DNA of 64,000 bases from Eledone cirrhosa (Eukaryota): NCBI GenBank assembly GCA_964016885.1, contig OZ024741.1, positions 362,886,001 through 362,950,000 of the forward strand. Direction: 5' to 3'. The translations under genes were made by a program, and so were the position numbers. Positions 15,292-62,400 of the stretch are shown in pieces. The notes beneath the pieces are model-generated. The model was not told the DNA's origin. It saw nothing but the letters and a program-made list of their open reading frames with translations, and did not search any database. The stretch's first letter is position 1; each line of letters starts with the position of its first letter.

Positions 15292-15379
15292 TTTGGATTA
15301 GCAAAGGACCCTGATGGTGAGAACCCCTGTGTTCCTATTATGGTTTGGAATACCTGTGCCTACACAATTCAAGTAATAG
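15292..15379 (+). CDS. UBR2: UBR1/2 exon 10
   Basis: FGLAKDPDGENPCVPIMVWNTCAYTIQVI (conserved VPIMxWxxCAYTIQ); phase 0->1. Confidence 0.92.
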
Positions 15380-15932
15380 GTAATTATGGTTTTATTTTTA
15401 CAGTGTAGGTATTCTAATTGCAGGCTTGGCTTTGTTGTTCACTTTACAACAGGTGGTTTCCAGTTCAGTCTTACCACTTGGTACATTGAGCAATTGTCTC
15501 CTACTATAGTCTCAGCTTCAAATTAACTGATATGAAGGAAATTTGGTAGACAGAAACTGTATAGAAGCCTGTTTGTGTGTGTGTGTATATATGTATATAT
15601 ATATTCTCAATTCTCAGACCAGGTGATGTGTTGTTTCCTTGAGCAAGATACTTTATTTCACATTTCTCCAGTTTACTCAGCTGTGGAAATGAGATGATAG
15701 GACAGGCGTCCATATCATTCCACTGCAAAGTGGTCGTAGAGATGCCACGGCAAAAAAAAGCACCCAGCCCACACTGTAAAGTAGACGTGTAGGCGCCACG
15801 GAAAAAAGCACCCAGCACTCACTGTATATGAGGTTGGTGTTAGGAAGGGCATCCAGCTGAAGAAATCAAGCCAGAATCAGTTCCCGTCTCACCCTTGCAA
15901 GCAGGGAAAAGTGGACGTAAAATGATGATGAT

Positions 15933-15952
15933 TATATATATATATATATATC

Positions 15953-16038
<86 letters not shown>
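15933..16038. repeat. (TA)n microsatellite with TACA interruptions
   Basis: direct reading. Confidence 0.95.
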
Positions 16039-16041
<3 letters not shown>

Positions 16042-17030
16042 GTAGAACACTGGAAGGTAATATCCGTAGTGGTAGAGCAGTCGGTCCATGGGACGAGTTA
16101 GGTAGAAGTGGCTACACAACAGTTAGTTCACCATACCGAGAACATTTGTTTCACCTTAGCGGATCCTTAGCTCGTAATGGACATGGTTATACGGAACAGG
16201 AAGGACAACCATGCGAATGCGCATGCGCAGAAACGATCACTTCACACAGGCAATACTAAATTGCGTGCGAGAGGTGTAAGGGAGATAACTGCAAAAGTCC
16301 GAAAGTTTCTAGTTGATAAGAAAATTAGGATGTAATTTAATCCGGAGCTTTGTAGTTATGTAAGAGGTGTTTCCAGACATGTGGACAACGTGTGAAGAAT
16401 TCATTTCTTGTGTTTAGGCAATCACTATTGCATAATCTCTTTAGAATATTTATTCGTTCATCAATACATAGTCCACACCACGGATTTCCCTTTGCGTATG
16501 GCTTTCCATTGAATGGAGTAGTCTATACTTGAGACAGACGTTCATCCACGAAACTCGCGAGCAACGTATGGTCCCTCAAGGACTCAAGTTTAGACTAATT
16601 GCATTCATAGGAAAGCTATCACTAAGTCCAAGCCATACGCAAGGGGCAATCCGTCGTGTGGACTATGTATTGATGAACGAACAAATATTCTAAAGAGATT
16701 ACGCAATAGTGATTGCCTAAACACGAGAAATGAATTCTTCACATGTTGTCCACATGTCTGGAAACACCTTACATAACTACAAAGCTTCAGATTGAATTAC
16801 AACATCTTAATTTTCTTATCAACTAGAAACTTTCGGACTTTCGCAGTTATCTCCCTGACACCTCTTGCACGCAATTTAGTATTGCCTGTGTGAAGTGATT
16901 GTTTCTGCGCATGCGCGTTCGTACGGTTGTCTTTCCTGTTCCGTATAACCATGTCCATTACGAGCTGAGGATCCACTAAAGTGAAACAATTGTTCTCGGT
17001 ATGGTGAACTAACTGTTGTGTAACCACTTG
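16038..17030 (+). mobile_element. Penelope-like element 3' end with inverted duplication (fold-back), in (TA)n
   Basis: arms ~16106-16533 and ~16583-17029; + strand reads STKLASNVWSLKD...KPYARGNPSCGLCIDERTNIL...CLNTRNEFFTCCPH*, a PLE endonuclease C-terminal pattern; hammerhead motif downstream. Confidence 0.8.
16961..16998 (+). ncRNA. minimal type I hammerhead ribozyme motif
   Basis: CGAG-CUGAGGA-(weak stem II)-GAAAC-AAUU-GUU-CUCG; palindromic stem III ACAAUUGU; stem I CGAG/CUCG extended by CCAU/AUGG. Confidence 0.65.
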
Positions 17031-17498
17031 TATATATATATTACCATTTATCCATGCTAGCATGGAATTTTGGATGTTAAACAGTGATGATAATGATTCC
17101 ACTGTTAGCAAGGGTTGGATTGATCTTCACAGACTGAATCAATACCGAGTGCCATTTATCATAACACCAATAGCAGTGAGAGAGTTGTCATGTCTTTGAC
17201 ACAGCTGAAGAGTCTTTTCAACCCTTTGTTTGGTAGGGAAACGGGTGTTAAATGATGACAGTATATGTGTGTGTGTATGTATTTATGTGTCTGTTTGTTT
17301 GTGTCCCTTAACTTACTGGTTCAACAAATAAGAGATTGATAAATTAAGTACCAGACGAGCAAAGTATAATTATTTGCATTGATATGATCAACTAAAAACA
17401 CTTTTCTTTGTTACTGAAGCCAGTAAAAGGATACAGGAGTAAATTTTAACATTTCAATAGTTTGAATTATCTTAGAAACATTTCTGCTTTCTTTTCAG

Positions 17499-17651
17499 AA
17501 CAAAGTTTGCAACACAACAACAAACCATTGTTTGGTTCTTTACCCAGTCGCCGTTCTGATTGTTTGGTTGCACTAGTGAAGTTTGCTGCAGTTTGTGGCC
17601 AGGTGATGTCTGCAGACACAGTCAAGCAACATTGCATACGATTGTTAACAG
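17499..17651 (+). CDS. UBR2: UBR1/2 exon 11
   Basis: EQSLQHNNKPLFGSLPSRRSDCLVALVKFAA...; phase 1->1. Confidence 0.92.
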
Positions 17652-20391: not shown

Positions 20392-23213
20392 TTAGCTGTA
20401 GTGTTGGCGGATCTCGGGAAGCATGGAGGCCTTAAAGGATGCAGTGTCTCGACAGCTAACAACTGATGCAGGTAGTTTATTCCATGCTTCAGCAACTCTG
20501 AGAGTGAAAAAATGTTTCCGAAAGTCATGGGAACTGTGCTGTTTTCTTACTTTGTGGGCATGTCCACGTGTGTTAGACACATGGAAATCGAAAAGGCACT
20601 CAGGGTTGTTGTTGGCAACATGGTTAACAATTTTGTGGGTGTTTACCAAGTCAGTTGCCAGGCGTCGGAGCTTCAATGAATCCATGCCCAGGGAAGCAAG
20701 GCGCTCAGAGTATGGTAGATGCCTGATGGAGGGTATTCGCTTGGTTGCACGTCTCTGAACAGTTTCCAGGCGGTCAATGTCCTGAGCAAGATAGGGGTTC
20801 CAGACTGGTGATGCAAATTCTAAGTGTGGTCGCACCATAGCTGTATACAGCCTTAAATAGATATCTGGAGAGCGGCTGACAAAGGTCTTGCTGAGTGATG
20901 CTAAGACACCCTCGGCCCTCTTGACAATTTTAGAGACGTGCCTCGTCCAACGCAAATCGCTGCTGACCGTAATGCCCAGGTCACGTTCACAGGAAGACTT
21001 CTTGATATTAGTGCTGTGGAGGGAGTATGTGGACGCTGGGTTTTTACTCCCAAAATGCATGGTGGTGCACTTGTCCACAGCTAGCTTGAGTTGCCAGTCT
21101 GAGATCCACTGTTGCATTGTGTCCAGGTCAGACTGCAAGCAAGATCTATAGTGTTCAGGATCTGTCCTTTTTATCTCAAGGTACAGCTTGATGTCGTCTG
21201 CGTACTTTAGTACTGTGGCATTCCTTAAGTTGGCATCTATGTCATTAATATATGCCACAAACAAAAGGGGGCCAAGAACAGATCCCTGAGGTACACCAGA
21301 TGACATCTCATATGGTGAGGAATGCTGTCCCAGAACCGTGACTACCTCTCTTCGACTGAGAATGAAGGACTTCAACCAGTTAAAAAGATCATCCTTCACA
21401 CCCATTGCAGAGAGTTTTGCCATAAGCCTTTTGTGTGGCACAGAATTGAAGGCCTTCGCAAAGTCAAGGTAAACAACATCCACCCATGAGCCGCCATCAG
21501 TGATCCGGGTGATGTCCTCAAGAAACTCTATAAGTTGATCACAGCAGCTGGAGTTGGGGATAAATCCAAATTGCGAGGGCCGGATAAGACTGTGAGAGCT
21601 CCAGAAGTTCCAAAGTGTTTCTCTGACACAGGATTCCATCAGTTTGGCGATGCAACTAGTAAGACTGACTGGACGATAGTTCACAGGTGATGTGCGGTCA
21701 CCCTTTTTGAACAGAGGAATGACACTGGCAGTTTTCCACTGTTCTGGAGTAGCACTGTTGTTCAGACAGAATTGGAAGAAGCGTGATAACTGGTGTAGAA
21801 GGAAGTACCCACCACGTTTAAGAAGCAGGTACGTAACACCATCAAGACCAGGAGAGGCATGGTTGCGTTTATTTTTTAGGTGACGTCGCAGCATTGCAGG
21901 TGTAAATTCCATGGTTGTAATAGAGTCCGGTGTCATAGGTGGTGGAGATGGTACACTCTGGTCTTCAATGGTGAAAATGCCTGCATAGCATTCAGCAATG
22001 AGCTCTGCGCATTCCTTGGGGTCGTCAGTAACCTGGCTTGTGTGGGGATTGCGAAGAGGACCAACTGAAGAGTGAGGCCTCTGCTTTGAGTGAACATACT
22101 TCCAGAACACCTTACTGTCAGGGCTGGTTGCTATGCGCTGCTCAAATTGAAGCACTGCCTTTTTTGTCACCGGTTTGAGGTGGTTGGACGATCTAATTCG
22201 CCTCTTCCTATTAATGTCTGATTTGTGAAGTTTGTACTCACGTTCAGCATTGCGCCGTTCTTTTCTGGCAAGACGGACTGCTGCAGTCTCCCAAATTGCG
22301 CTTTTAGGATGTTTTTTCTGCTTACGTGGCACCGATGCTGCACATGCTGTCCATATTGAGCTCAGGATGTTCTGGAGTACAGTGTTGACATCTCCAGAGT
22401 CATAGAACTCAAGCCAGTTTGGCCGTTGCAACTCGGTGCAGTAACAGTTCCAGTCTGCTTTATTCCAGTCAAAGTGAGCAGTTTGGAGATGGTTGTGGTT
22501 CTTGTTACTGCCCATGAGGGATAGATTGGCAATGATCATAGCATGATCAGAGTCACCTAAAGGTTCCTCAGCCTAATGACCGTTTCAGGAGTAGTGGTGA
22601 AGAGTAGGTCCAAAGTGTTGTGACCTCTCGTTGGGGAGGTGACCACCTGGGACCAACTCGAGTCCAGCACCAGCTCAAGGAAGTCATTTGCACTTGGCGG
22701 CCAACGAAAGGTCTCCCAGTCAATCTCAGGGTGATTGAAGTCACCTGCAATGAAAACATAAGTGGCTGTCTTCCTGGCAGCAGCTCTGAGGATATCACAA
22801 AGTTGAGTGTCCTGATGGTAATTTGGGGGACGGTAAACGACTCCAAGTAGCAGTGTTGACATGGTCATACGTATATCGCAGAAAAAAACTTCCTGCTGTG
22901 ATTGGTTCAAATCAGCACAAGGAATTGCCGACAGATTTGACCGAACGTAGACCATTACACCACCACCACGACGATTAATACGGTCTTTACGAAACAGGTT
23001 GTAGCCAGTCATGCTGAAAACCCCATCACAGAGTAAGGGATGTGCCCAAGTTTCCGTGACTGTAATGAAGTCCGGGTTGATACTTTTGACGTAGGAGTCA
23101 AAAAGATGAATCTTATTGCATAGACTACGTGCATTCAAGGACAACAGTTTGTACTTTGATTCCAGTCTATGATTATGTGCAGGGGATGGCAGGTTGTTCT
23201 GATTTAGTTTCCC
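20392..23213 (-). pseudogene. CR1 ORF2 (APE endonuclease + reverse transcriptase), broken by a 7-nt deletion near 22571
   Basis: ORFs 22557..23144 and 20392..22539; the copy at ~61580 reads TTTPEVVISCTTEEPLGDSDH and is 7 nt longer at this point. Confidence 0.9.
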
Positions 23214-24058
23214 AGAGTTTTTTCAGTTTCTTTATTGTCAGTTGTTGTGGGTACACTGTTTTCAGACCAGCTGGTGTCTCTTTTCCATGATTCGCCAGCC
23301 TTAACAAACTTCCATATCTGCCCATCATCTCGTAGGCTGAAGCTTTCATGTTCTGCCGAGCTGCGGTTTAGGGAAGCTGCAGCACGCAACTTTGGGCGGA
23401 CATCAGGTGGAAGACCAGGACGTGTTCGGAAAGCAATCCGACTTTCACGCCTAGCTTTATCAGAGGCTACAAGGTATGAACGTGCCTCAGTTGAGTTTGA
23501 AAACGACAGTCTAATTAACCTGGGTTTCGGGCCTGGTCGGCCAAGGCGTAGAGCACCCTTTGCGGAAGCACAGCCCAGGTCTTTGGATGAACTGGCAGCA
23601 AATGCCTGAAGATCAACTATGTCTTCCGGCACACCAATGGCAATCACTTCGTGGTTTGCAGATTCAGTGGCATTCTCAATGCGTCTAGGTTCAACATGAG
23701 GTACGCGGAGATTTTTTAACAAGGCACTCCGGTAAGATCCCTCATTGTGCGGTTCTACACGAACGCTTGATTTTATTTCCGCTATTTCTTGACTTAAAGC
23801 GGAAATCATTTGCCGTATTTCCTCAAACTCCGTATTGACGGTCGGTTTTTGTTGTTCTTCTCCTTCAACAGGCATGGTAGAAGACACAGTCGTCGGTTGT
23901 TGTTGTTGAAAAGTAACGGGTGAGGAAGACATGGGTTGCTGTTGTTGATGAAGTCCTTCAACGGGGGTAGTAGCAGAAGCTACGGTCGTTGGTTTTTGCT
24001 GTTGTTCAGCGACAATGGTAGAGGAAGACACGATCCTCGGTTTTGATGATATATTCAC
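23204..24058 (-). CDS. CR1 ORF1 protein (possibly 5'-truncated)
   Basis: 284 aa; Q/T/P-rich N-terminal repeats, coiled coil, RLGRPGPKPRLIRLSF motif typical of LINE ORF1; ends TLGN*. Confidence 0.8.
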   Translation of the reverse strand: MNISSKPRIVSSSTIVAEQQQKPTTVASATTPVEGLHQQQQPMSSSPVTFQQQQPTTVSSTMPVEGEEQQKPTVNTEFEEIRQMISALSQEIAEIKSSVRVEPHNEGSYRSALLKNLRVPHVEPRRIENATESANHEVIAIGVPEDIVDLQAFAASSSKDLGCASAKGALRLGRPGPKPRLIRLSFSNSTEARSYLVASDKARRESRIAFRTRPGLPPDVRPKLRAAASLNRSSAEHESFSLRDDGQIWKFVKAGESWKRDTSWSENSVPTTTDNKETEKTLGN

Positions 24059-24439
24059 TTGATATATATAATAATCGTTTTAAGACCCTTACTGAAGCAG
24101 TGAGCTTCATAACAAGCTTTTTCATTTTGCCTTATTGTTTGTATTCCTCCTCATTTTAACCATGATTTTCTCGGTCTTCCTTTATTTCCTTCCACATCAT
24201 TTGTCATCACTCCTCTCATCCAGTCACTTTCATTCTTCCTCAACACATGAACTATCTCGTTCCATTTCTCTTCTCTACATTCATCGCTGGCTCTATTGTC
24301 CTTAGCCTCTTCAATTAATTGATTCTCTCTCTTTCTCTCATATACTTGCTTCATGTATACATGCATTTCATATATTTCTAAGATGTTTCTCTCCTCTATA
24401 ATTTGCCTAATGTTATACTGTTAACTTTTACACTTTTAG

Positions 24440-36647: not shown

Positions 36648-39600
36648 CATCATCATCACGATTTTACGTCCGTTCTTCCACGCTAGCATGGGTTAGATGG
36701 GTTGTCCTGTTGTGGGCAGTGTCCGGTCAGCTGACCTTGTCTTGCTCATATGGGAACTGATTCTGGCTTGATTTCTACAGCTGGATGCCCTTCCTAACAC
36801 CAACCTCATTTACAGTGAATGCAGAGTGCTTTTTTTCTGTGGCACCTACACGTCCACTTTACAGTGTGGGCTGGGTGCTTTTTTGCAGTGGGAGGGTTTG
36901 GGGGCATATTGTCTATATGCTTCAGCTTCGGCTTGTACCCGTGGGCTCGGGTCTTCTGTATTACTGCGTGACGCCAGAGGTGACGGTCGTGTGTCATCGC
37001 CTTTGAGAGGTGTAATTGGATAAGGTCGACTTATCACCTCATCCCAGGTGTTCTTGGGTCTCCCCACTCCGCGCTTTCCATCAACTTCTAGTGCTCTGCA
37101 CCTTTTTATGCAGCTGTCATCCTTCATACGCATCACATGTCCATACCAACGCAACTTCCTCTCCTGCACACAGCATTTGATTCCTCTTATGCTCAGTCTC
37201 TCTCTCAATTCATTTATGCTTTGCTGTTCGTATACACACATCATACAGTCTGCCTTTCATTTTGAGGGAAAAGCCTTTTGCAGCTAGCAGTGGCAGTAGC
37301 TCCCTGAACTTCTTCCATCCCGTTCTTACCCTAGTTATTGTACTTTCCGAACACACACCTCCGCTGCTAATTCGGTCAACTAGGTAGCAGAAGCTGTCTA
37401 CTGTTTCTACAGAGCCCTCCCAGAGTTTGGTGGTACTTATTTCCTGTGGCTGTTTGTTGATTGCTGTCCCAGCACAGCTGCTACATGTGAAGCCTACATT
37501 CTTAGTTAAGCTTCCTGAGATCCTGCTACATCTCTTGTGTACCCATTGTTTGCATTTGGGGCAGAGAATGGAGTTCCGACCTACACCTTTCCTACATACT
37601 CAGCAAGGCCATTTCCCTGAAGGGATCTGGGTTCTGTTTTCTCGTCTACTTACAAGGACCTTAGTCTTTGTCATGTTGACTTTGAGACCCTTTCTTTCTA
37701 GTCCCTGCTTCCAAGTTTGGAATTTATTCTCTAGTTCTACCATAGATTCAGCTATAAGTGCGAGGTCATCTGCATACAGGAGTTCCCATGGGCATCCGGT
37801 CTTAAACTCCTCCGTTATTGCCTACAGGACTATGATGAACAGGAGAGGGCTAAGAACAGAGCCCTGGTGGACACTGACCTGTACGCTAAATTCCTCGCTA
37901 TACTCATTGCTAATCCTAACTTTGCTGACTGCTCCCTTATACATGGCTTGTACAGCTTTCACAAGCCATTCATCTACTCCTAGTTTTCTAAGAGCCCACC
38001 AGATTACAGCACGTGGAACTCTGTCAAAGGCTTTCTTGAGATTGACGAATGCCAGGTAGAGTGGCTTACTTTTAGCTAGGTACTTTTCCTGTAACTGCCT
38101 CACAAGAAAGAGGGCATCAGTGGTGCCACTTCCTGGCACAAACCCAAATTGCATCTCGTCTATATTCACCCGGTCCCTAATCAGCTGTGCTATAACTCTT
38201 TCTGTTACTTTCATGACCTGGTCCATCAGCTTTATACCTCTATAGTTTCCTCTATCTAGTGCATCACCTTTACCTTTGTAGCAGTTGACAATGATGCTAC
38301 TGCACCAATCCTTTGGTATGACACCTTCTAGTATTACCTCGTTAACAATACGTGTGGTTATGGTGTGACCTACCGACCCAGATGCCTTCAGCATCTCGGC
38401 AGCTATACCTGATGGACCGGTTGCCTTCCCCGTCTTCATATCTTTGATTGCCTTACTTACTATGCTGCTGCTGACTTGTACTGCTGGCCCCTCTATAGGG
38501 TCTACTTGGGGTAGGGTCATTTCTTCCCATGCATTCTCCTCATTTAATAATCTATTATAATGGCTCTTCCACGCATCTTTCTTCTCAGCACTTGTAAAGG
38601 CAAGCTCACCTTTATCATTCTGGATACACTTCTCTCCAATGACATCACAATTCTCTCTGACACACTGCCTCGCAATATGTTTCTGGTCCTCGCGTTGCAA
38701 AACATGCTTGAATTTTCTATCCTCTGCTTCTCTTCTAGCTAAGTATACTTGTCGCCTAGCTTCCCTCCTGGTCTCTATGTAATGTACTCTGCTTCCCCCG
38801 TCTTTCCATGCCTGTCTCTTGGCCTTAACTGCCTCATCTACCTTATTGTTCCACCACCAAGTCACTCTCCTCCTGCCTGTGGTTTTACTCCAGCCACAGA
38901 TCTCATCCGTCGCCTTTAGTAAGTTATTTTTTAAGAACTCCCAGTGCTCTTCTACATTGAATGTCTTTATCTGTTCTTCTTTACTGTCATAGGCATTGAG
39001 TAAAATATCTTTAAATCTGTTACTGGCTGAGGTGTCTTTCTTCTCCAGGTTCGTCTAGTTCTGACCGTGAGGCCGCTGACAACTAAGCTATGTTGGGAGG
39101 TACATTCCTCACTAGGGAAGGCTTTTGTGTTTACGACTGTCCATCTGTCACGTCGTCTGATGAGGATAAAATCTATTTGACTAGAATGCTCCCCTGATCT
39201 ATAGGTGATCAGGTGGCTGTCAGGTTTTTTGAAGTTTGTGTTACATATCGACATGTCATTGGCGTCGCAGAATTCTAGAAGCCTGAATCCTTCTTCATTT
39301 CTTGTGCCAACCCCATGGCCTCCATGGACTCTATAGAAGCCGTCACGGTGTTTACCTACGTGTCCATTAAAATCTCCTGCAATGATTAGGAAGTCATTAT
39401 CGTTTGTTAGGGCAGTAATGTGCATTAGGGACTCGTAAAACCTATCCGTAAGTTCGTCTGGCAACCCCGATTGGGGTGCATAAGCTGATATTGTGGTAAT
39501 TGTTTTATTCGGGACTAGTCTGAGTTTAATGATTCTTGCATTCACCCTGTTCACTGAGATTACCTTATCTACCCACATGTTAGCTAGTAGGATACCTACA

Positions 39601-39890
39601 CCACCCATCCCATCGTCAGAAAAATTTGTAGCACTGATTTTTTTTCCTACAAGGACTCTAGCAGACTCTCCTCTCCATCTAGTCTCTTGCACACAGCATA
39701 CATCAATTTCCTTTCGCTCTAGCATCTCTACGATTTCTCCTGCTCTTCCTTTCATTGTGCTTATATTGATGGTACCAACTCGGAGTTTTGGGCATTTGTC
39801 AACATTCGTGGGAAAGATTTTTGCAGGGGTGTGTGTATGCTTCCTGTCTCTGAATTGAAACTTCACATGGGTGCTTGGTAGCTCGCGGAT
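36648..39890 (-). mobile_element. near full-length degenerate RTE-clade LINE
   Basis: APE (VQETRW, GDFNGHVG, SQH), RT (NYRGIKL, QFGF, LKKAFDRV, HQGSVLSP), RTE C-terminus (RLRWYGHV, GRPKNTW), (GAT)n tail; several stops and frameshifts. Confidence 0.92.
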
Positions 39891-41328: not shown

Positions 41329-41652
41329 TATATATATATATATAATTTTTGTTCTTTATATCTATACATGTAAATAAAGAACAAAAATTAACAAGGATTT
41401 TAAATTAAAGTGTTTAATTGATTTATGACCATTTTGTTAGAGTAACTGGAATATTCTATTCCTGTTAGAATGAACTCATCAATCAATTAAATACAAATAA
41501 TATATACCTCACAGATCTTCAGTGAAAGAAGGAAAAACATAACTAATAGCATTGAAATATTTTAATGCTATTGTTTACATAATATAAATTAAATGCTGTA
41601 ATTTAAAATCCTTGTTTACCTTTATTCTTTATATATATATATATATATGTGT

Positions 41653-43204
41653 GTGGCGGGTACTTCTTTTTGCATCAGCTTTCTTTCTTCTTTCAATACT
41701 GTCTCAACAATGGTGCTACTCCGGAGCAGTGGAAAACTGCCAATGTCATTCCCCTGTTCAAAAAGGGCGACTGCACGTCACCTGTCAACTATCGTCCAGT
41801 CAGTCTTACTAGCTGTATTGCCAAACTGATGGAGTCCTGTGTCAGAGAAACACTTTGGAACTTCTGGAGCTCTCACAGCCTCAGCCGGCCCTCGCAATTT
41901 GGATTTATCCCTAACTCCAGCAGCTATGATCTGCTTATCGAGTTCCTTGAAGACATTACCCAGATCACTGACAGCGGCTCATGGGTGGATGTTGTTTACC
42001 TTGACTTTGCTAAGGCTTTTAATTCTGTGCCACACAAAAGACTTATGGTGAAACTCTCTGCAATGGGTGTGAAGGATGATCTTTTTAACTGGTTGAAATC
42101 CTTGATTCTCAGCCGAGAAGAGGTAGTCACGGTTCTAGGACAGCATTCTTCACCATATGAGATGTCATCTGGTGTACTACAGGGATCTGTTCTTGGTCCC
42201 CTTTTGTTTGTTACATACATTAATGACATAGATGCCAACTTAAAGAATGCCACGGTACTGAAATATGCAGATGACATCAAGCTGTACCTTGAAATCAAAA
42301 GGACAGATCCTGAAATCTATAACTCTTTCCTACAATCAGACCTGGGCACAGACTGGCAACTGAAGCTGGCTGTGGACAAGTGTACCACCATTTTGGGAGG
42401 AAAAATCCAGCGTCCACATACTCCCTCCACAACCCTGATATCAAGAAGTCCTCTTGTGAACGTGACCTGGGCATTACTGTCAGCAGCGATTTGCGTTGGA
42501 CAAAGCACGTCTCTAAAATTGTGAAGAAGGCCGAGGGTGTCTTGGCATCACTCAGCAAGACCTTTGTCAGCCGTTCTCCAGTTATCTATTTAAAGCTGTA
42601 TACAGCTATGGTACGACCACACTTGGAATTCGCATCATCAGTCTGGAACCCCTATCTTGCTCAGAACATTGACCTCCCGAAAACTGTTCAGAGACGTGCA
42701 ACCAAGCGCATACCCTCCATCAGACACCTACCATACTCTGAACGCCTTGCTTCCCTGGGCATGGATTCATTGAAGATCCGACGTCTGGCAATGGACTCGG
42801 TAAACACGCACAAAGTTATTAACCATCTCGCCAACAATAACCCTGAGCACCTTTGATCTCCATGTGTCTAACACACGTGGACATGCCTACAAAATCAGAA
42901 AACAGCACAGCTCCCATGACTTTCGGAAACATTTTTTCATGCTTAGAGTTGCTGAAGCATGGAACAAACTACCTGCGTCAGTTGTTAGCTGCCGAGACAC
43001 TGCATCCTTTAAAACCCTCATGCTTACTGAAATTCGCCAAAACTACACCTGATGTCTCCCTTCCATACACATGCACACATGTGTATATCATTACCCATGT
43101 ACTGTTCACTTTCCTGACGTTTTTACATTACCCTATGTACTATACATACACTTTTGATGAGTTGTAGTGCACCTAAGCACTGTTCACAATATTTTCATTA
43201 TTAT
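41653..43204 (+). mobile_element. 5'-truncated degenerate CR1 LINE, subfamily B
   Basis: RT ORFs 41649..42524 and 42380..42856 with frameshifts; longer 3' UTR; starts next to (TA)n. Confidence 0.93.
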
Positions 43205-45420: not shown

Positions 45421-47535
45421 ATAATAATGAAATTATTGTGTAAAGTGCTCAGGTGCACTACAACTCGTCAATATAGTACATAGAATAATACACAAATGCC
45501 AGGGAAGTACATGTTTGTATGTGTTAGCTGTAGTGTTGGCGGATCTCGGGAAGCATGGAGGCCTTAAAGGATGCAGTGTCTCGACAGCTAACAACTGATG
45601 CAGGTAGTTTGTTCCATGCTTCAGCAACTCTGAGCGTGAAAAAATGTTTCCGAAAGTCATGGGAACTGTGCTGTTTTCTTACTTTGTGGGCATGTCCACG
45701 TGTGTTAGACACATGGAAATCGAAAAGGCACTCAGGGTTGTTGTTGGCAACATGGTTAACAATTTTGTGGGTGTTTACCAAGTCAGTTGCCAGGCGTCGG
45801 AGCTTCAATGAATCCATGCCCAGGGAAGCAAGGCGCTCAGAGTATGGTAGATGCCTGATGGAGGGTATTTGCTTGGTTGCACGTCTCTGAACAGTTTCCA
45901 GGCGGTCAATGTCCTGAGCAAGATAGGGGTTCCAGACTGGTGATGCAAATTCTAAGTGTGGTCGTACCATAGCTGTATACAGCCTTAAATAGATATCTGG
46001 AGAGCGGCTGACAAAGGTCTTGCTGAGTGATGCTAAGACACCCTCGGCCCTCTTGACAATTTTAGAGACGTGCCTCGTCCAACGCAAATCGCTGCTGACC
46101 GTAATGCCCAGGTCACGTTCACAGGAAGACTTCTTGATATTAGTGCTGTGGAGGGAGTATGTGGACGCTGGGTTTTTACTCCCAAAATGCATGGTGGTGC
46201 ACTTGTCCACAGCTAGCTTGAGTTGCCAGTCTGAGATCCACTGTTGCATTGTGTCCAGGTCAGACTGCAAGCAAGATCTATAGTGTTCAGGATCTGTCCT
46301 TTTTATCTCAAGGTACAGCTTGATGTCGTCTGCGTACTTTAGTACTGTGGCATTCCTTAAGTTGGCATCTATGTCATTAATATATGCCACAAACAAAAGG
46401 GGGCCAAGAACAGATCCCTGAGGTACACCAGATGACATCTCATATGGTGAGGAATGCTGTCCCAGAACCGTGACTACCTCTCTTCGACTGAGAATGAAGG
46501 ACTTCAACCAGTTAAAAAGATCATCCTTCACACCCATTGCAGAGAGTTTTGCCATAAGCCTTTTGTGTGGCACAGAATTGAAGGCCTTCGCAAAGTCAAG
46601 ATAAACAACATCCACCCATGAGCCGCCATCAGTGATCCGGGTGATGTCCTCAAGAAACTCTATAAGTTGATCACAGCAGCTGGAGTTGGGGATAAATCCA
46701 AATTGCGAGGGCCGGATAAGACTGTGAGAGCTCCAGAAGTTCCAAAGTGTTTCTCTGACACAGGATTCCATCAGTTTGGCGATGCAACTAGTAAGACTGA
46801 CTGGACGATAGTTCACAGGTGATGTGCGGTCACCCTTTTTGAACAGAGGAATGACACTGGCAGTTTTCTACTGTTCTGGAGTAGCACTGTTGTTCAGACA
46901 GAATTGGAAGAAGCGTGATAACTGGTGTAGAAGGAAGTACCCACCACGTTTAAGAAGCAGGTACGTAACACCATCAAGACCAGGAGAGGCATGGTTGCGT
47001 TTATTTTTTAGGTGACGTCGCAGCATTGCAGGTGTAAATTCCATGGTTGTAATAGAGTCCGGTGTCATAGGTGGTGGAGATGGTACACTCTGGTCTTCAA
47101 TGGTGAAAATGCCTGCATAGCATTCAGCAATGAGCTCTGCGCATTCCTTGGGGTCGTCAGTAACCTGGCTTGTGTGGGGATTGCGAAGAGGACCAACTGG
47201 AGAGTGAGGCCTCTGCTTTGAGTGAACATACTTCCAGAACACATTACTGTCAGGGCTGGTTGCTATGCGCTGCTCAAATTGAAGCACTGCCTTTTTTGTC
47301 ACCTGTTTGAGGTGGTTGGACGATCTATTTCGCCTCTTCCTATTAATGTCTGATTTGCGAAGTTTGTACTCACGTTCAGCATTGCGCCGTTCTTTTCTGG
47401 CAAGACGGACTGCTGCAGTCTCCCAAATTGCGCTTTTAGGATGTTTTTTCCGCTTACGTGGCACCGATGCTGCACATGCTGTCCATATTGAGCTCAGGAT
47501 GTTCTGGAGTACAGTGTTGACATCTCCAGAGTCAT
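45421..47535 (-). mobile_element. 5'-truncated CR1 LINE, subfamily A
   Basis: near-identical to 20290-22403; TGG>TAG stop at 46868-46870; same 3' UTR and (ATT)n tail. Confidence 0.95.
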
Positions 47536-47878
47536 GATCCTTTTCAGGGCCTCTGAGATTGTTGGGAGACAGAAAGGAAAGTATCTGCAAACTGGAGACT
47601 ACTGGGAGAGGATTAGGAAGGTGTCCTAAAACCAGAGACCGCATTCAAAAGCTTGCATAAGATTATTCTAATGTTAAGAACATTCATAAGAGTATATTCT
47701 GTTTTCCACAGGGGCATGGTTTGGATGTGCTGTCATGGCATGAAACTAGACTGATCAGGAGACTAAACCTTATTCATATGTTCTATTTTGGGCACAGGTT
47801 CTACAGCTTGATGTCCTTCCAAATGCCAACCCTTCTACAGAGAGTACTGGGTGCATTAGATATTAAAATTATAGATAC

Positions 47879-59642: not shown

Positions 59643-62400
59643 AATAATAATGTAAATATTGTGTACAGTGCTCAGGTGCACTACAACTCATCAAAAGTGT
59701 ATGTACAGTACATAGGGTAATGTACAAACGTCAAGAAAATGAACAGTGCATGAGTCATGATATACACATGTGTGCATGTGTATGGAAGGGGGACATCAGG
59801 CGTAGTTTTGGCGAATTTCGGGAAGCATGAGGGTTTTAAAGGATGCAGTGTCTCGGCAGCTAACAACTGACGCAGGTAGTTTGTTCCATGCTTCAGCAAC
59901 TCTAAGCATGAAAAAATGTTTCCGAAAGTCATGGGAGCTGTGCTGTTTTCTGATTTTGTAGGCATGTCCACGTGTGTTAGACACATGGAGATAAAAAAGG
60001 TGCTCAGGGTTGTTGTTGGCGAGATGGTTAATAACTTTGTGCGTGTTTACCAAGTCCATTGCCAGACGTCGTAGCTTCAATGAATCCATGCCCAGAGAAG
60101 CAAGGCGTTCAGAGTATGGTAGGTGTTTGATGGAGGGTATGCGCTTGGTTGCACGTCTCTGAACAGTTTCCAGGAGGTCAATGTTCTGAGCAAAGTAGGG
60201 GCTCCAAACTGATGATGTGAATTCCAAGTGTGGTCGTACCATAGCTGTATACAGCTTTAAATAGATGGCTGGAGAGCGGCTAACAAAGGTCTTGCTGAGT
60301 GATGCCAAGACACCTTCGGCCTTCTTGACAATTTTAGAGATGTGCTTTGTCCAATGCAAATCGCTGCTGACAGTAATGCACAGGTCACGTTCACAAGAGG
60401 ACTTCTTGATATCAGTTAAAAAGATCATCCTTCACACCCATTGCAGAGAGTTTCGCCATAAGTCTTTTGTGTGGCACAGAATTAAAAGCTTCAGCGAAGT
60501 CAAGGTAAACAACATCCACCCATGAGCCACTGTCAGTGATCCGGGTAATGTCTTCAAGGAACTCGATAAGCTGATCACAGCAGCTGGAGTTAGGGATAAC
60601 AACAAATTGCAAGGGCCGGATGAGGCTGTGAGAGCTCCAGAAGTTCCAAAGTGTTTCTCACAGGATTCCATCAGTTTGGCAATACAGCTAGTAAGACTGA
60701 CTGGACGATAGTTGACAGGTGACGTGCAGTCGCTCTTTTTGAACAGGGGAATGACACTGGCAGTTTTCCACTGCTCCGGAGTAGCCCCATTGTTGAGACA
60801 GTATTGAAAGAAGAAAGAAAGCTGGTGCAAAAGGAAGTACCCGCTACGTTTGAGAAGCAGGTATGTAACACCATCAAGACCAGGGGAGGCATAGTTGCGC
60901 TTATTCTTAAGGCGATGTCGCAGCATTGCAGGTGTAAATTCCATAGTTGTTATGGAATTTGATGTTAGAGATGGTGGAGATGGTACATTCTGGTTTTCAA
61001 CAGTAAAAATGCTTGCATAGCACTCAGCAATGAGTTCTGCACATTCTTTGAGATCGTCAGTGATCTGGCTTGTGTGGGGATTGCGAAGGGGACCAACTGG
61101 AGAGTGAGGTCTCTGCTTTGAATGTACATATTTCCAGAACACCTTACTGTCAGGATTGGTTGCTATGCACTGTTCAAATTCAAGCACTGCTTTTTTTTGT
61201 CACTTGCTTGAGATGGTTGGAAAGATTTATTCCGCTTTTTTCTGTTGGCATCTGATTTATGCAGTTTATATTCCCATTCAGCAAGTCGGACTGCTGAAGT
61301 TTCCCAAATTGAACTTTTGGGGTGGGTTTTTTTCTGTCACGTGACACTGATGCTGCACACGCTATCCATATTGAGTCCAGGATGCTCTGGAGTATAGTGT
61401 TCACATCTCCAGAGTTATACATCTCATGCCAGTTTGGGCGCTGTAGCTCAGTGCAGTACAAGTTCCAATCTGCTTTCTTCCAATCAAAGCAAGCAGATTG
61501 GAGATGGTTCTGGTTTTTGTTGCTGCCCACAAGAGCCAGATTGGCAATGATCATAGCATGATCAGAGTCGCCTAGAGGTTCCTCAGTAGTACAACTGATA
61601 ACTACTTCAGGAGTAGTGGTGAAAAGCAGGTCCAAAGTGTTGTCACCTCTTGTTGGAGAGGTGACTACTTGTGACCAGTTTGAGTCCAGCACTAGCTCAA
61701 AGAAATCGTTTTCACTTTGTGGCCAACGAAAGATTTCCCAATCGATCTCAGGATGATTGACGTCACCTGGAATAAACACATAAGTGGCTGTTTTCCTGGC
61801 AGCAGCTCTGAGGATATTGCAAAGCTGTGTGTCCTGATGCTAGTTTGGGGGCGATAAACAACACCAAGCAGAAGTGTTGACATGGTCATACATATGTCAC
61901 AGAAAAAAATTTCTTGTGATTCGTTCGAATCAACACAAGGAATTACCGAAAAATTTGAATGAACGTAGACCATCACACCACCACCACGGCGATTAATGCG
62001 GTCCTTACGGAACAGGTTGTACCCAGTAATGCTGAAAACCCCATCACAGAGTAAGGAATGTGCCCATGTTTCCGTGACTGTGATGAAGTCAGGGTTGATG
62101 CTTCTGACATAGGAGTTAAACAGATGTATCTTGTTGCATAAACTGCAAGCATTTAAGGACAACAATTTGTACCCTGCTTGCAGTTTATGATGGTGTGTAG
62201 AGGATGGCAGGTTGTTCTGGTTTAGTTTCCCAGAGTTGTTGCAGTTTTTTCATTGCCAGTTATTGTAGGTAGAGCGCACTCAGACCAGCTAGTATCTCTC
62301 TTCCACGTTTCACCAGCCTTAACAAACCTCCAGATCTGCCCATCATCACGCAGACTAAAACTTTCATGTTGTGCTGAGTTCCGATTCAAGGAAGCTGCAG
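59643..62400 (-). mobile_element. degenerate CR1 LINE, subfamily B, retaining ORF1 end, APE and internally deleted RT
   Basis: ORFs 61692..62165, 61180..61779, 60432..61187, 59796..60428; deletion joins DDLFN to DIKKSS, removing YADD. Confidence 0.93.

What the first reader, a model, noticed from the sequence alone, without database searches (positions are those of the whole stretch)
16038..17030. ~1-kb intronic palindrome is a fold-back Penelope-like retroelement end with a hammerhead ribozyme
Seen: ~430-bp inverted arms between (TA)n tracts, one with a ~70-nt extension (16038-16105). The + strand from ~16534 gives a decayed peptide STKLASNVWSLKD...KPYARGNPSCGLCIDERTNILKRLRNSDCLNTRNEFFTCCPH*, missed by the ORF track. 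A CUGAGGA...GAAAC-AAUU-GUU motif closed by CGAG/CUCG follows at 16961-16998; the mirror copy has CUAAGGA (core mutated). Established: PLEs carry minimal type I hammerheads with palindromic stem III, form inverted partial repeats, and some target microsatellites. Inference: what looks like a MITE is a PLE relic whose intact-core ribozyme is sense to the UBR pre-mRNA but could be masked by the long hairpin.
Basis: partly seen in the sequence, partly recalled or inferred. Interest (0 to 1): 0.75.

Follow-up and report, generated by a model that had tools for sequence, protein, structure and literature searches.

The report
Decayed Hydra-clade Penelope fold-back insertion
This 1-kb mirror-image stretch in an intron of a UBR ubiquitin-ligase gene is an ordinary, decayed back-to-back insertion of a very abundant Penelope-like jumping gene, and its self-cutting RNA motif is damaged and predicted to be masked, so it likely does nothing here.

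Summary
The palindrome is real: arms 16106-16533 (-) and 16533-17029 (+), 93% alike, inside UBR1/2 intron 15380-17498. Both arms are 5'-truncated 3' ends of a Penelope-like retroelement with 3,768 exact matches of a 34-mer in this genome. Long copies (unit about 2.55 kb) encode RT plus C-terminal GIY-YIG with the diagnostic motifs of the Hydra clade (Craig 2021); it is a different family from Hydra-1_Obim. The 67-nt extension is the known PLE tail: in tandem copies it runs on into the 5' UTR. The hammerhead is clade-typical, but the sense copy is not intact: two G>A changes leave a 1-bp stem II, and the hairpin pairs 34 of its 38 bases. The mirror copy has G5A. Best extra: 52 of 55 inverted pairs carry exactly one tail, which points to coupled use of two RT start sites. 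No RNA data. The scan has reported this class of palindrome on other DNA of this genome. New member of a known kind.

The parts
15292..15379 (+). UBR1/2 exon upstream of the element (donor GT at 15380)
   Evidence: matches UBR2 1316-1343 and UBR1 1305-1332; splice site read from sequence
15933..16038 (.). (TA)n target tract, left
16039..16105 (-). 67-nt PLE tail = first part of the element's 5' UTR, ending at an internal TATATA
   Evidence: tandem copies read pLTR end > tail > TATATA > 5' UTR > ATG
16106..16533 (-). left arm: inverted 5'-truncated 3' end (endonuclease C-terminus, 3' UTR/pLTR)
16137..16174 (-). mirror hammerhead, G5A and broken stem III palindrome
   Evidence: self-dimer -0.7 vs -6.4 kcal/mol
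16533..17029 (+). right arm: 5'-truncated 3' end without tail; 1-nt overlap with left arm at 16533
16533..16773 (+). frameshifted remnant of the GIY-YIG C-terminus with CxxC..E..N..CxH
16906..16917 (.). palindromic GC motif in the pLTR (also 16218-16229); resembles an NRF-1 site (recalled, untested)
16961..16998 (+). minimal type I hammerhead, Hydra-type (U..U flanking stem II); core intact, stem II reduced to 1 bp; predicted cut after 16994
17031..17041 (.). short (TA)n, right
17499..17647 (+). UBR1/2 exon downstream (acceptor AG at 17497-17498; 3' end approximate)
   Evidence: matches UBR2 1344-1393, E 9e-6; joins in frame to the upstream exon

Best explanation
The element is a decayed head-to-head pair of 5'-truncated 3' ends of a Hydra-clade Penelope-like retrotransposon sitting in a (TA)n tract of a UBR1/2 intron, likely made in one insertion event, and its hammerhead is predicted to be inactive here. 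Shown: family membership, copy abundance, tail identity, two fixed 3' end points, decay. Inferred: the element's GIY-YIG nicked both strands of the (TA)n; reverse transcription began at the distal start site (giving the tail) on one strand and at the proximal site 67 nt upstream on the other; both copies read through the uncut hammerhead, stopped early in the endonuclease region and were joined at 16533. Since then both arms have decayed independently, about 3.5-3.8% each. In UBR pre-mRNA the left arm is made first and would zip up the ribozyme in a 400-bp duplex that leaves with the intron.
For: 3,768 exact matches to the 34-mer 16996-17029, control 0. Long copies: 585-aa open RT+EN frame, N-terminus with RWR and SDKT, unit about 2.55 kb between pLTR ends. 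Hydra motifs per Craig 2021 section 11 seen in alignment. Tail continues into 5' UTR. All 30 position-ordered matches end at +36/38 or +103/104 from the cut. Exactly one tail in 23 of 25, 17 of 18 and 12 of 12 inverted pairs, against 8 tailed of 16 single copies. Frangieh 2024: two internal RT start sites delimit the tail, both strands are cut and extended, hammerhead cleavage not needed. 34 of 38 ribozyme bases paired to the left arm at p>0.9; stem II pair probability 0.001 vs 0.46 in a majority-type copy.
Against: Single-event origin is not shown by shared variants: the arms share 1 derived change (a CpG), near the between-locus background of 0.26. Three pairs break the one-tail rule (two at L087, one at L167/169). 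A cDNA fold-back with later trimming could give the same ends. No tree against named Hydra families was built. Pfam gave no hit for either peptide. Inactivity rests on folding models only.
Confidence: 0.88

Rival explanations
1. The sense hammerhead cleaves the UBR intron, or a transcript started in the right arm's pLTR, and so affects UBR processing.
For: All core letters, stem I and the stem III palindrome are intact. 5' ends of short copies cluster 29-52 nt upstream of the cut (11 of 28 loci), where an RNA start may lie; such an RNA would lack the masking arm. PAc hammerhead is protein-assisted.
Against: Stem II is 1 bp; hammerhead-like fold +3.6 kcal/mol vs ensemble -13.0. Minimal hammerheads were inactive as monomers and weak as dimers (Cervera 2014); the only nearby partner is antisense and G5A. 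The copy is more decayed than its relatives, not less.
Confidence: 0.04
2. The palindrome arose by fold-back of one truncated cDNA onto itself, the second end being trimmed by the endonuclease to the proximal site.
For: Craig 2021 attribute the one-sided tail to EN-mediated resolution. The right arm has a 50-nt unique stretch that could be a loop.
Against: Only 1 nt of overlap at the junction. The tail lies on the shorter arm in 16 and on the longer arm in 7 of 23 pairs, so no fixed polarity. Single copies also use both end points.
Confidence: 0.3
3. Two independent insertions into the same (TA)n tract happened to land head to head.
For: The family targets (TA)n and is abundant; nested insertions occur; no shared derived variants beyond background.
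Against: No (TA)n or other spacer at the junction; inverted pairs are common (14 of the first 30 loci) and follow the one-tail rule; both arms have the same age.
Confidence: 0.03
4. A MITE or fold-back DNA transposon with long terminal inverted repeats.
For: Inverted arms and TA flanks.
Against: Copies vary freely at the 5' side, reach into an RT-EN ORF and have asymmetric ends.
Confidence: 0.01

Closest known systems
Hydra clade of C-terminal EN+ Penelope-like elements (Craig et al. 2021, PMC8557442; passages, section 11, supplement part 2 and search hits seen)
   Same: Under 3 kb, single ORF, RT then GIY-YIG, DKT, CxCX5C linker, CxxC and CxH around E and N, no CCHH, (TA)n targets, hammerhead in the pLTR; U..U around stem II as in 14 of 25 listed families and U at the cut as in 10 of 25; inverted truncated copy and one-sided tail.
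   Different: RWR instead of RWK; stem II of 2 bp is shorter than any listed (minimum 3); tail 67 nt against the 30-40 bp quoted.
Hydra-1_Obim (Octopus bimaculoides; Craig et al. File S1/S2)
   Same: Same clade, similar length (2,507 bp), (TA)n preference, similar N-terminus by eye.
   Different: Different hammerhead sequence and visibly diverged protein (compared by eye only); listed without pLTR, whereas this family has tandem pLTR copies.
Minimal PLE hammerheads (Cervera and de la Pena 2014, PMC4209133; parts 1-2 of 4 read)
   Same: Type I, short stem I, palindromic stem III suited to dimers; pairs on opposite strands 100-700 bp apart were already noted.
   Different: Lacks the G10.1-C11.1 pair they call highly conserved; stem II much shorter than their 7-8 bp.
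PAc/Poseidon of Anolis (Frangieh et al. 2024, PMC11167929; parts 1-2 of 4 read)
   Same: Two fixed 3' ends bounding a tail; uncut hammerhead copied through.
   Different: PAc starts lie in the ORF and are not homologous to the target; here both lie in the 5' UTR, end in ACCACT, and are followed by TA or TATATA like the target.

Membership tests
Penelope-like elements (EN+) | single ORF with RT and C-terminal GIY-YIG | tested here: met
   585-aa open frame in L008; 308 relatives at E<=1e-20; Pfam gave no hit
Penelope-like elements (EN+) | partial tandems (pLTR), inverted truncated copy, optional tail | tested here: met
Hydra clade | length under 3 kb | tested here: met
   2,550 (L071) and 2,563 (L074) nt between pLTR ends
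Hydra clade | RWK and DKT motifs | tested here: met
   SDKT and RWR in L034, L035; RWR also in 2 of 9 aligned relatives
Hydra clade | CxCX5C linker; CxxC and CxH flanking E and N; no CCHH | tested here: met
Hydra clade | insertion into (TA)n | tested here: met
   28 of 30 position-ordered matches run into TA repeats at the 3' end or nearly so; L181 does not, L178 after 3 nt
Hydra clade | phylogenetic placement with named Hydra families | not tested
Minimal type I hammerhead | CUGANGA and GAAA core, UH cut, stem I, palindromic stem III | tested here: met
   family and sense copy; core mismatches 22 of 913 vs 464 of 8798 in non-CpG upstream sites, subfamily change at N7 in 12 of 83 (copies not independent)
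Minimal type I hammerhead | stem II of at least 2 bp | tested here: not met
   met by the family majority (2 bp), not by the window's sense copy (1 bp)
Minimal type I hammerhead | self-cleavage | not testable with these tools
   no copy ends within 3 nt of the cut among 28 and 30 examined; two copies begin 1-2 nt after it
MITE | fixed length, symmetric TIRs, no retroelement body | tested here: not met

The most novel reading that the evidence does not exclude
The near-strict one-tail rule (52 of 55 pairs) is the footprint of a coupled reaction in which a Hydra-clade RT-EN dimer primes both strands of a (TA)n cut from two different RNA start sites 67 nt apart, each followed by TA letters that pair with the target; this would make Hydra-clade priming target-homologous, unlike PAc, and explain PLE inverted ends.
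Probability: 0.4. Interest if true: 0.55.

Novelty: new member of a known kind. Interest (0 to 1): 0.28.

Why it matters
The locus itself matters little: one decayed copy among thousands. The family is useful because its ends are sharp enough to count. One tail per inverted pair constrains how PLEs build inverted ends, which Craig 2021 list as open, and a young sister family with intact 714-aa frames offers a protein to test it with. The 400-bp intronic duplex could be an RNA-editing substrate, untested.

Tried and rejected
Rfam scan at E<=10 gave no hammerhead family, only repeat-driven noise. Pfam: 0 families for both peptides. No RNA holder listed; the three runs laid behave as DNA of one sample and say nothing on expression, editing or cleavage. 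Shared derived variants between arms: uninformative. Fossil A-to-G editing in this copy: not seen; 1 of 19 and 2 of 14 changes are A>G or T>C, 12 of 19 and 9 of 14 are C>T or G>A. First core-versus-flank comparison was discarded because its selection pattern included core letters; redone. The 190-nt mini-palindrome family was looked at as a sister for covariation and gave no recognisable hammerhead. Search of earlier findings by sequence: nothing. O. vulgaris repeat paper (PMC13282606, 3 passages) names no family and no hammerhead; its supplements and Dfam/Repbase were not seen, so the family may already be catalogued. Four paper searches were run; none was aimed at the one-tail count, so I do not claim it is unpublished.

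Full report
Observation. The palindrome is as described. The arms align at 93% over 405 nt, the left arm reaches 16533 across a short deletion, and the region folds at -724 kcal/mol, z -82. The left flank is a 105-nt (TA)n, the right an 11-nt one. The peptide is there in two frames and runs past CCPH to VWKHLT*. The arms differ from the family majority at 19 of 496 and 14 of 397 sites and share one change, so this is old DNA and not an assembly fold-back.

Host context. Exons on either side match human UBR2 1316-1343 and 1344-1393 and join in frame across a GT-AG intron at 15380-17498; two further exons match UBR2/UBR1. The element fills 47% of the intron, 659 nt from the donor and 469 nt from the acceptor; the right arm is sense. 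The genome is a 3.0-Gb animal assembly; octopus is suggested by earlier notes and the nearest named family, not tested by me.

Family. The right arm gave 3,488 candidates, 40 scored; a 34-mer from its end has 3,768 exact matches, control 0. Several copies extend upstream into RT and GIY-YIG coding sequence; L008 has a 585-aa open frame with 308 relatives at E<=1e-20. The window's own peptides hit 86 and 103 of the 120 stored relatives at E<=0.01. The ORF has SDKT, RWR, a CxCX5C linker, CxxC and CxH around the conserved E and N, and no CCHH, the features that define the Hydra clade in Craig 2021 section 11. The unit is about 2.55 kb. It is not Hydra-1_Obim: the hammerhead differs and the protein is visibly diverged (by eye). 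No tree was built.

Tail. In tandem copies the pLTR end is followed by the same 67 nt, then TATATA, the rest of the 5' UTR and the start codon. So the extension is the PLE tail. Copies end at only two places, +36/38 or +103/104 from the predicted cut, in 30 of 30 position-ordered matches; both ends finish in ACCACT and are followed by TA letters. Among inverted pairs with both outer ends visible exactly one arm has the tail in 23 of 25 (seven loci with one end only and three without inverted arm left out), 17 of 18 (chosen on a tailed arm; two duplicate rows dropped) and 12 of 12 (one duplicate pair, one pair with a lost end and two minor partners, both also one-tailed, left out). Single copies were 8 tailed of 16. 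Craig 2021 state qualitatively that the tail is often at one end only; Frangieh 2024 show that two RT start sites bound the tail and that both strands are cut and extended. I infer one coupled event with a different start site on each strand; fold-back with trimming remains a live rival. Earlier scan notes proposed twin priming for other families in this genome, so this reading is not independent of them.

Hammerhead. The family majority has a 4-bp stem I, CUGANGA, an unpaired U on each side of a 2-bp stem II, GAAA, an 8-nt palindromic stem III and U at the cut. U on both sides of stem II occurs in 14 of 25 Hydra families in File S2 and U at the cut in 10 of 25; the shortest stem II there is 3 bp. 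Across 83 distinct arms the 11 core positions differ in 22 of 913 cells against 464 of 8,798 in non-CpG upstream sites, and subfamily variation falls on N7 and loop II (copies are related, so this is indicative). Rfam did not detect it. In the window the sense copy has G>A at 16975 and 16980, leaving one stem II pair (probability 0.001 vs 0.46) and a competing hairpin that takes G12; it fails a descriptor that family copies pass. The mirror copy has G5A and a broken palindrome. In the pre-mRNA context 34 of 38 bases pair with the left arm at p>0.9. Cervera 2014 found such motifs inactive as monomers and weak as dimers. No copy's 5' end lies within 3 nt of the cut among 28 and 30 examined (the first query was biased against ends just after the cut), while two copies begin 1-2 nt after it; many short copies end 29-52 nt upstream (11 of 28), in line with an RNA start there as earlier notes suggested. 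The enzyme therefore mostly copies uncut RNA.

Verdict. It is an ordinary, decayed member of a described clade with a described architecture, reported by this scan for other families of the same genome. The ribozyme is probably dead at this locus (about 4% chance of a host effect). The countable one-tail rule is the only feature of wider use. Interest 0.28.

Noticed in passing
L110-L137 (e.g. G000:C24:20523438, C12:27137475): A young sister Hydra family with many near-identical copies and open frames of 714 aa, 53% identical to this family's ORF, often in inverted pairs; its hammerhead-like motif has G at the cut position and it carries microsatellite inside its UTR.
   Followed up: partly
L088-L107: A roughly 190-nt mini-palindrome with one-sided tail in (TA)n, 5,211 candidates; same architecture, no hammerhead recognised.
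   Followed up: partly
L014:616, L076, L087 and others: Several further repeat families with Hydra-type hammerheads and different stems in the flanks of fetched loci.
   Followed up: no
window 16218-16229 and 16906-16917: Palindromic GC motif about 40-50 nt upstream of the clustered 5' ends; resembles an NRF-1 site (recalled). Each arm may hold an outward-facing promoter remnant.
   Followed up: no
L173, L176, L179/180, L185/186, L188: An older subfamily, 82-88% identical, with changed N7 and loop II, obeys the same two end points.
   Followed up: partly
window 20392-24079 and 45524-47644 (-): Two near-identical LINE-type RT copies, the first with endonuclease and upstream ORF; more decayed relatives at 41607-43052 and 59681-62249; an RTE-like element at 37210-39890 (classes judged from the translations, not searched).
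   Followed up: no
G000:C1:35171285 and C1:36101400: Two identical palindromic insertions 930 kb apart, probably a segmental duplication.
   Followed up: no
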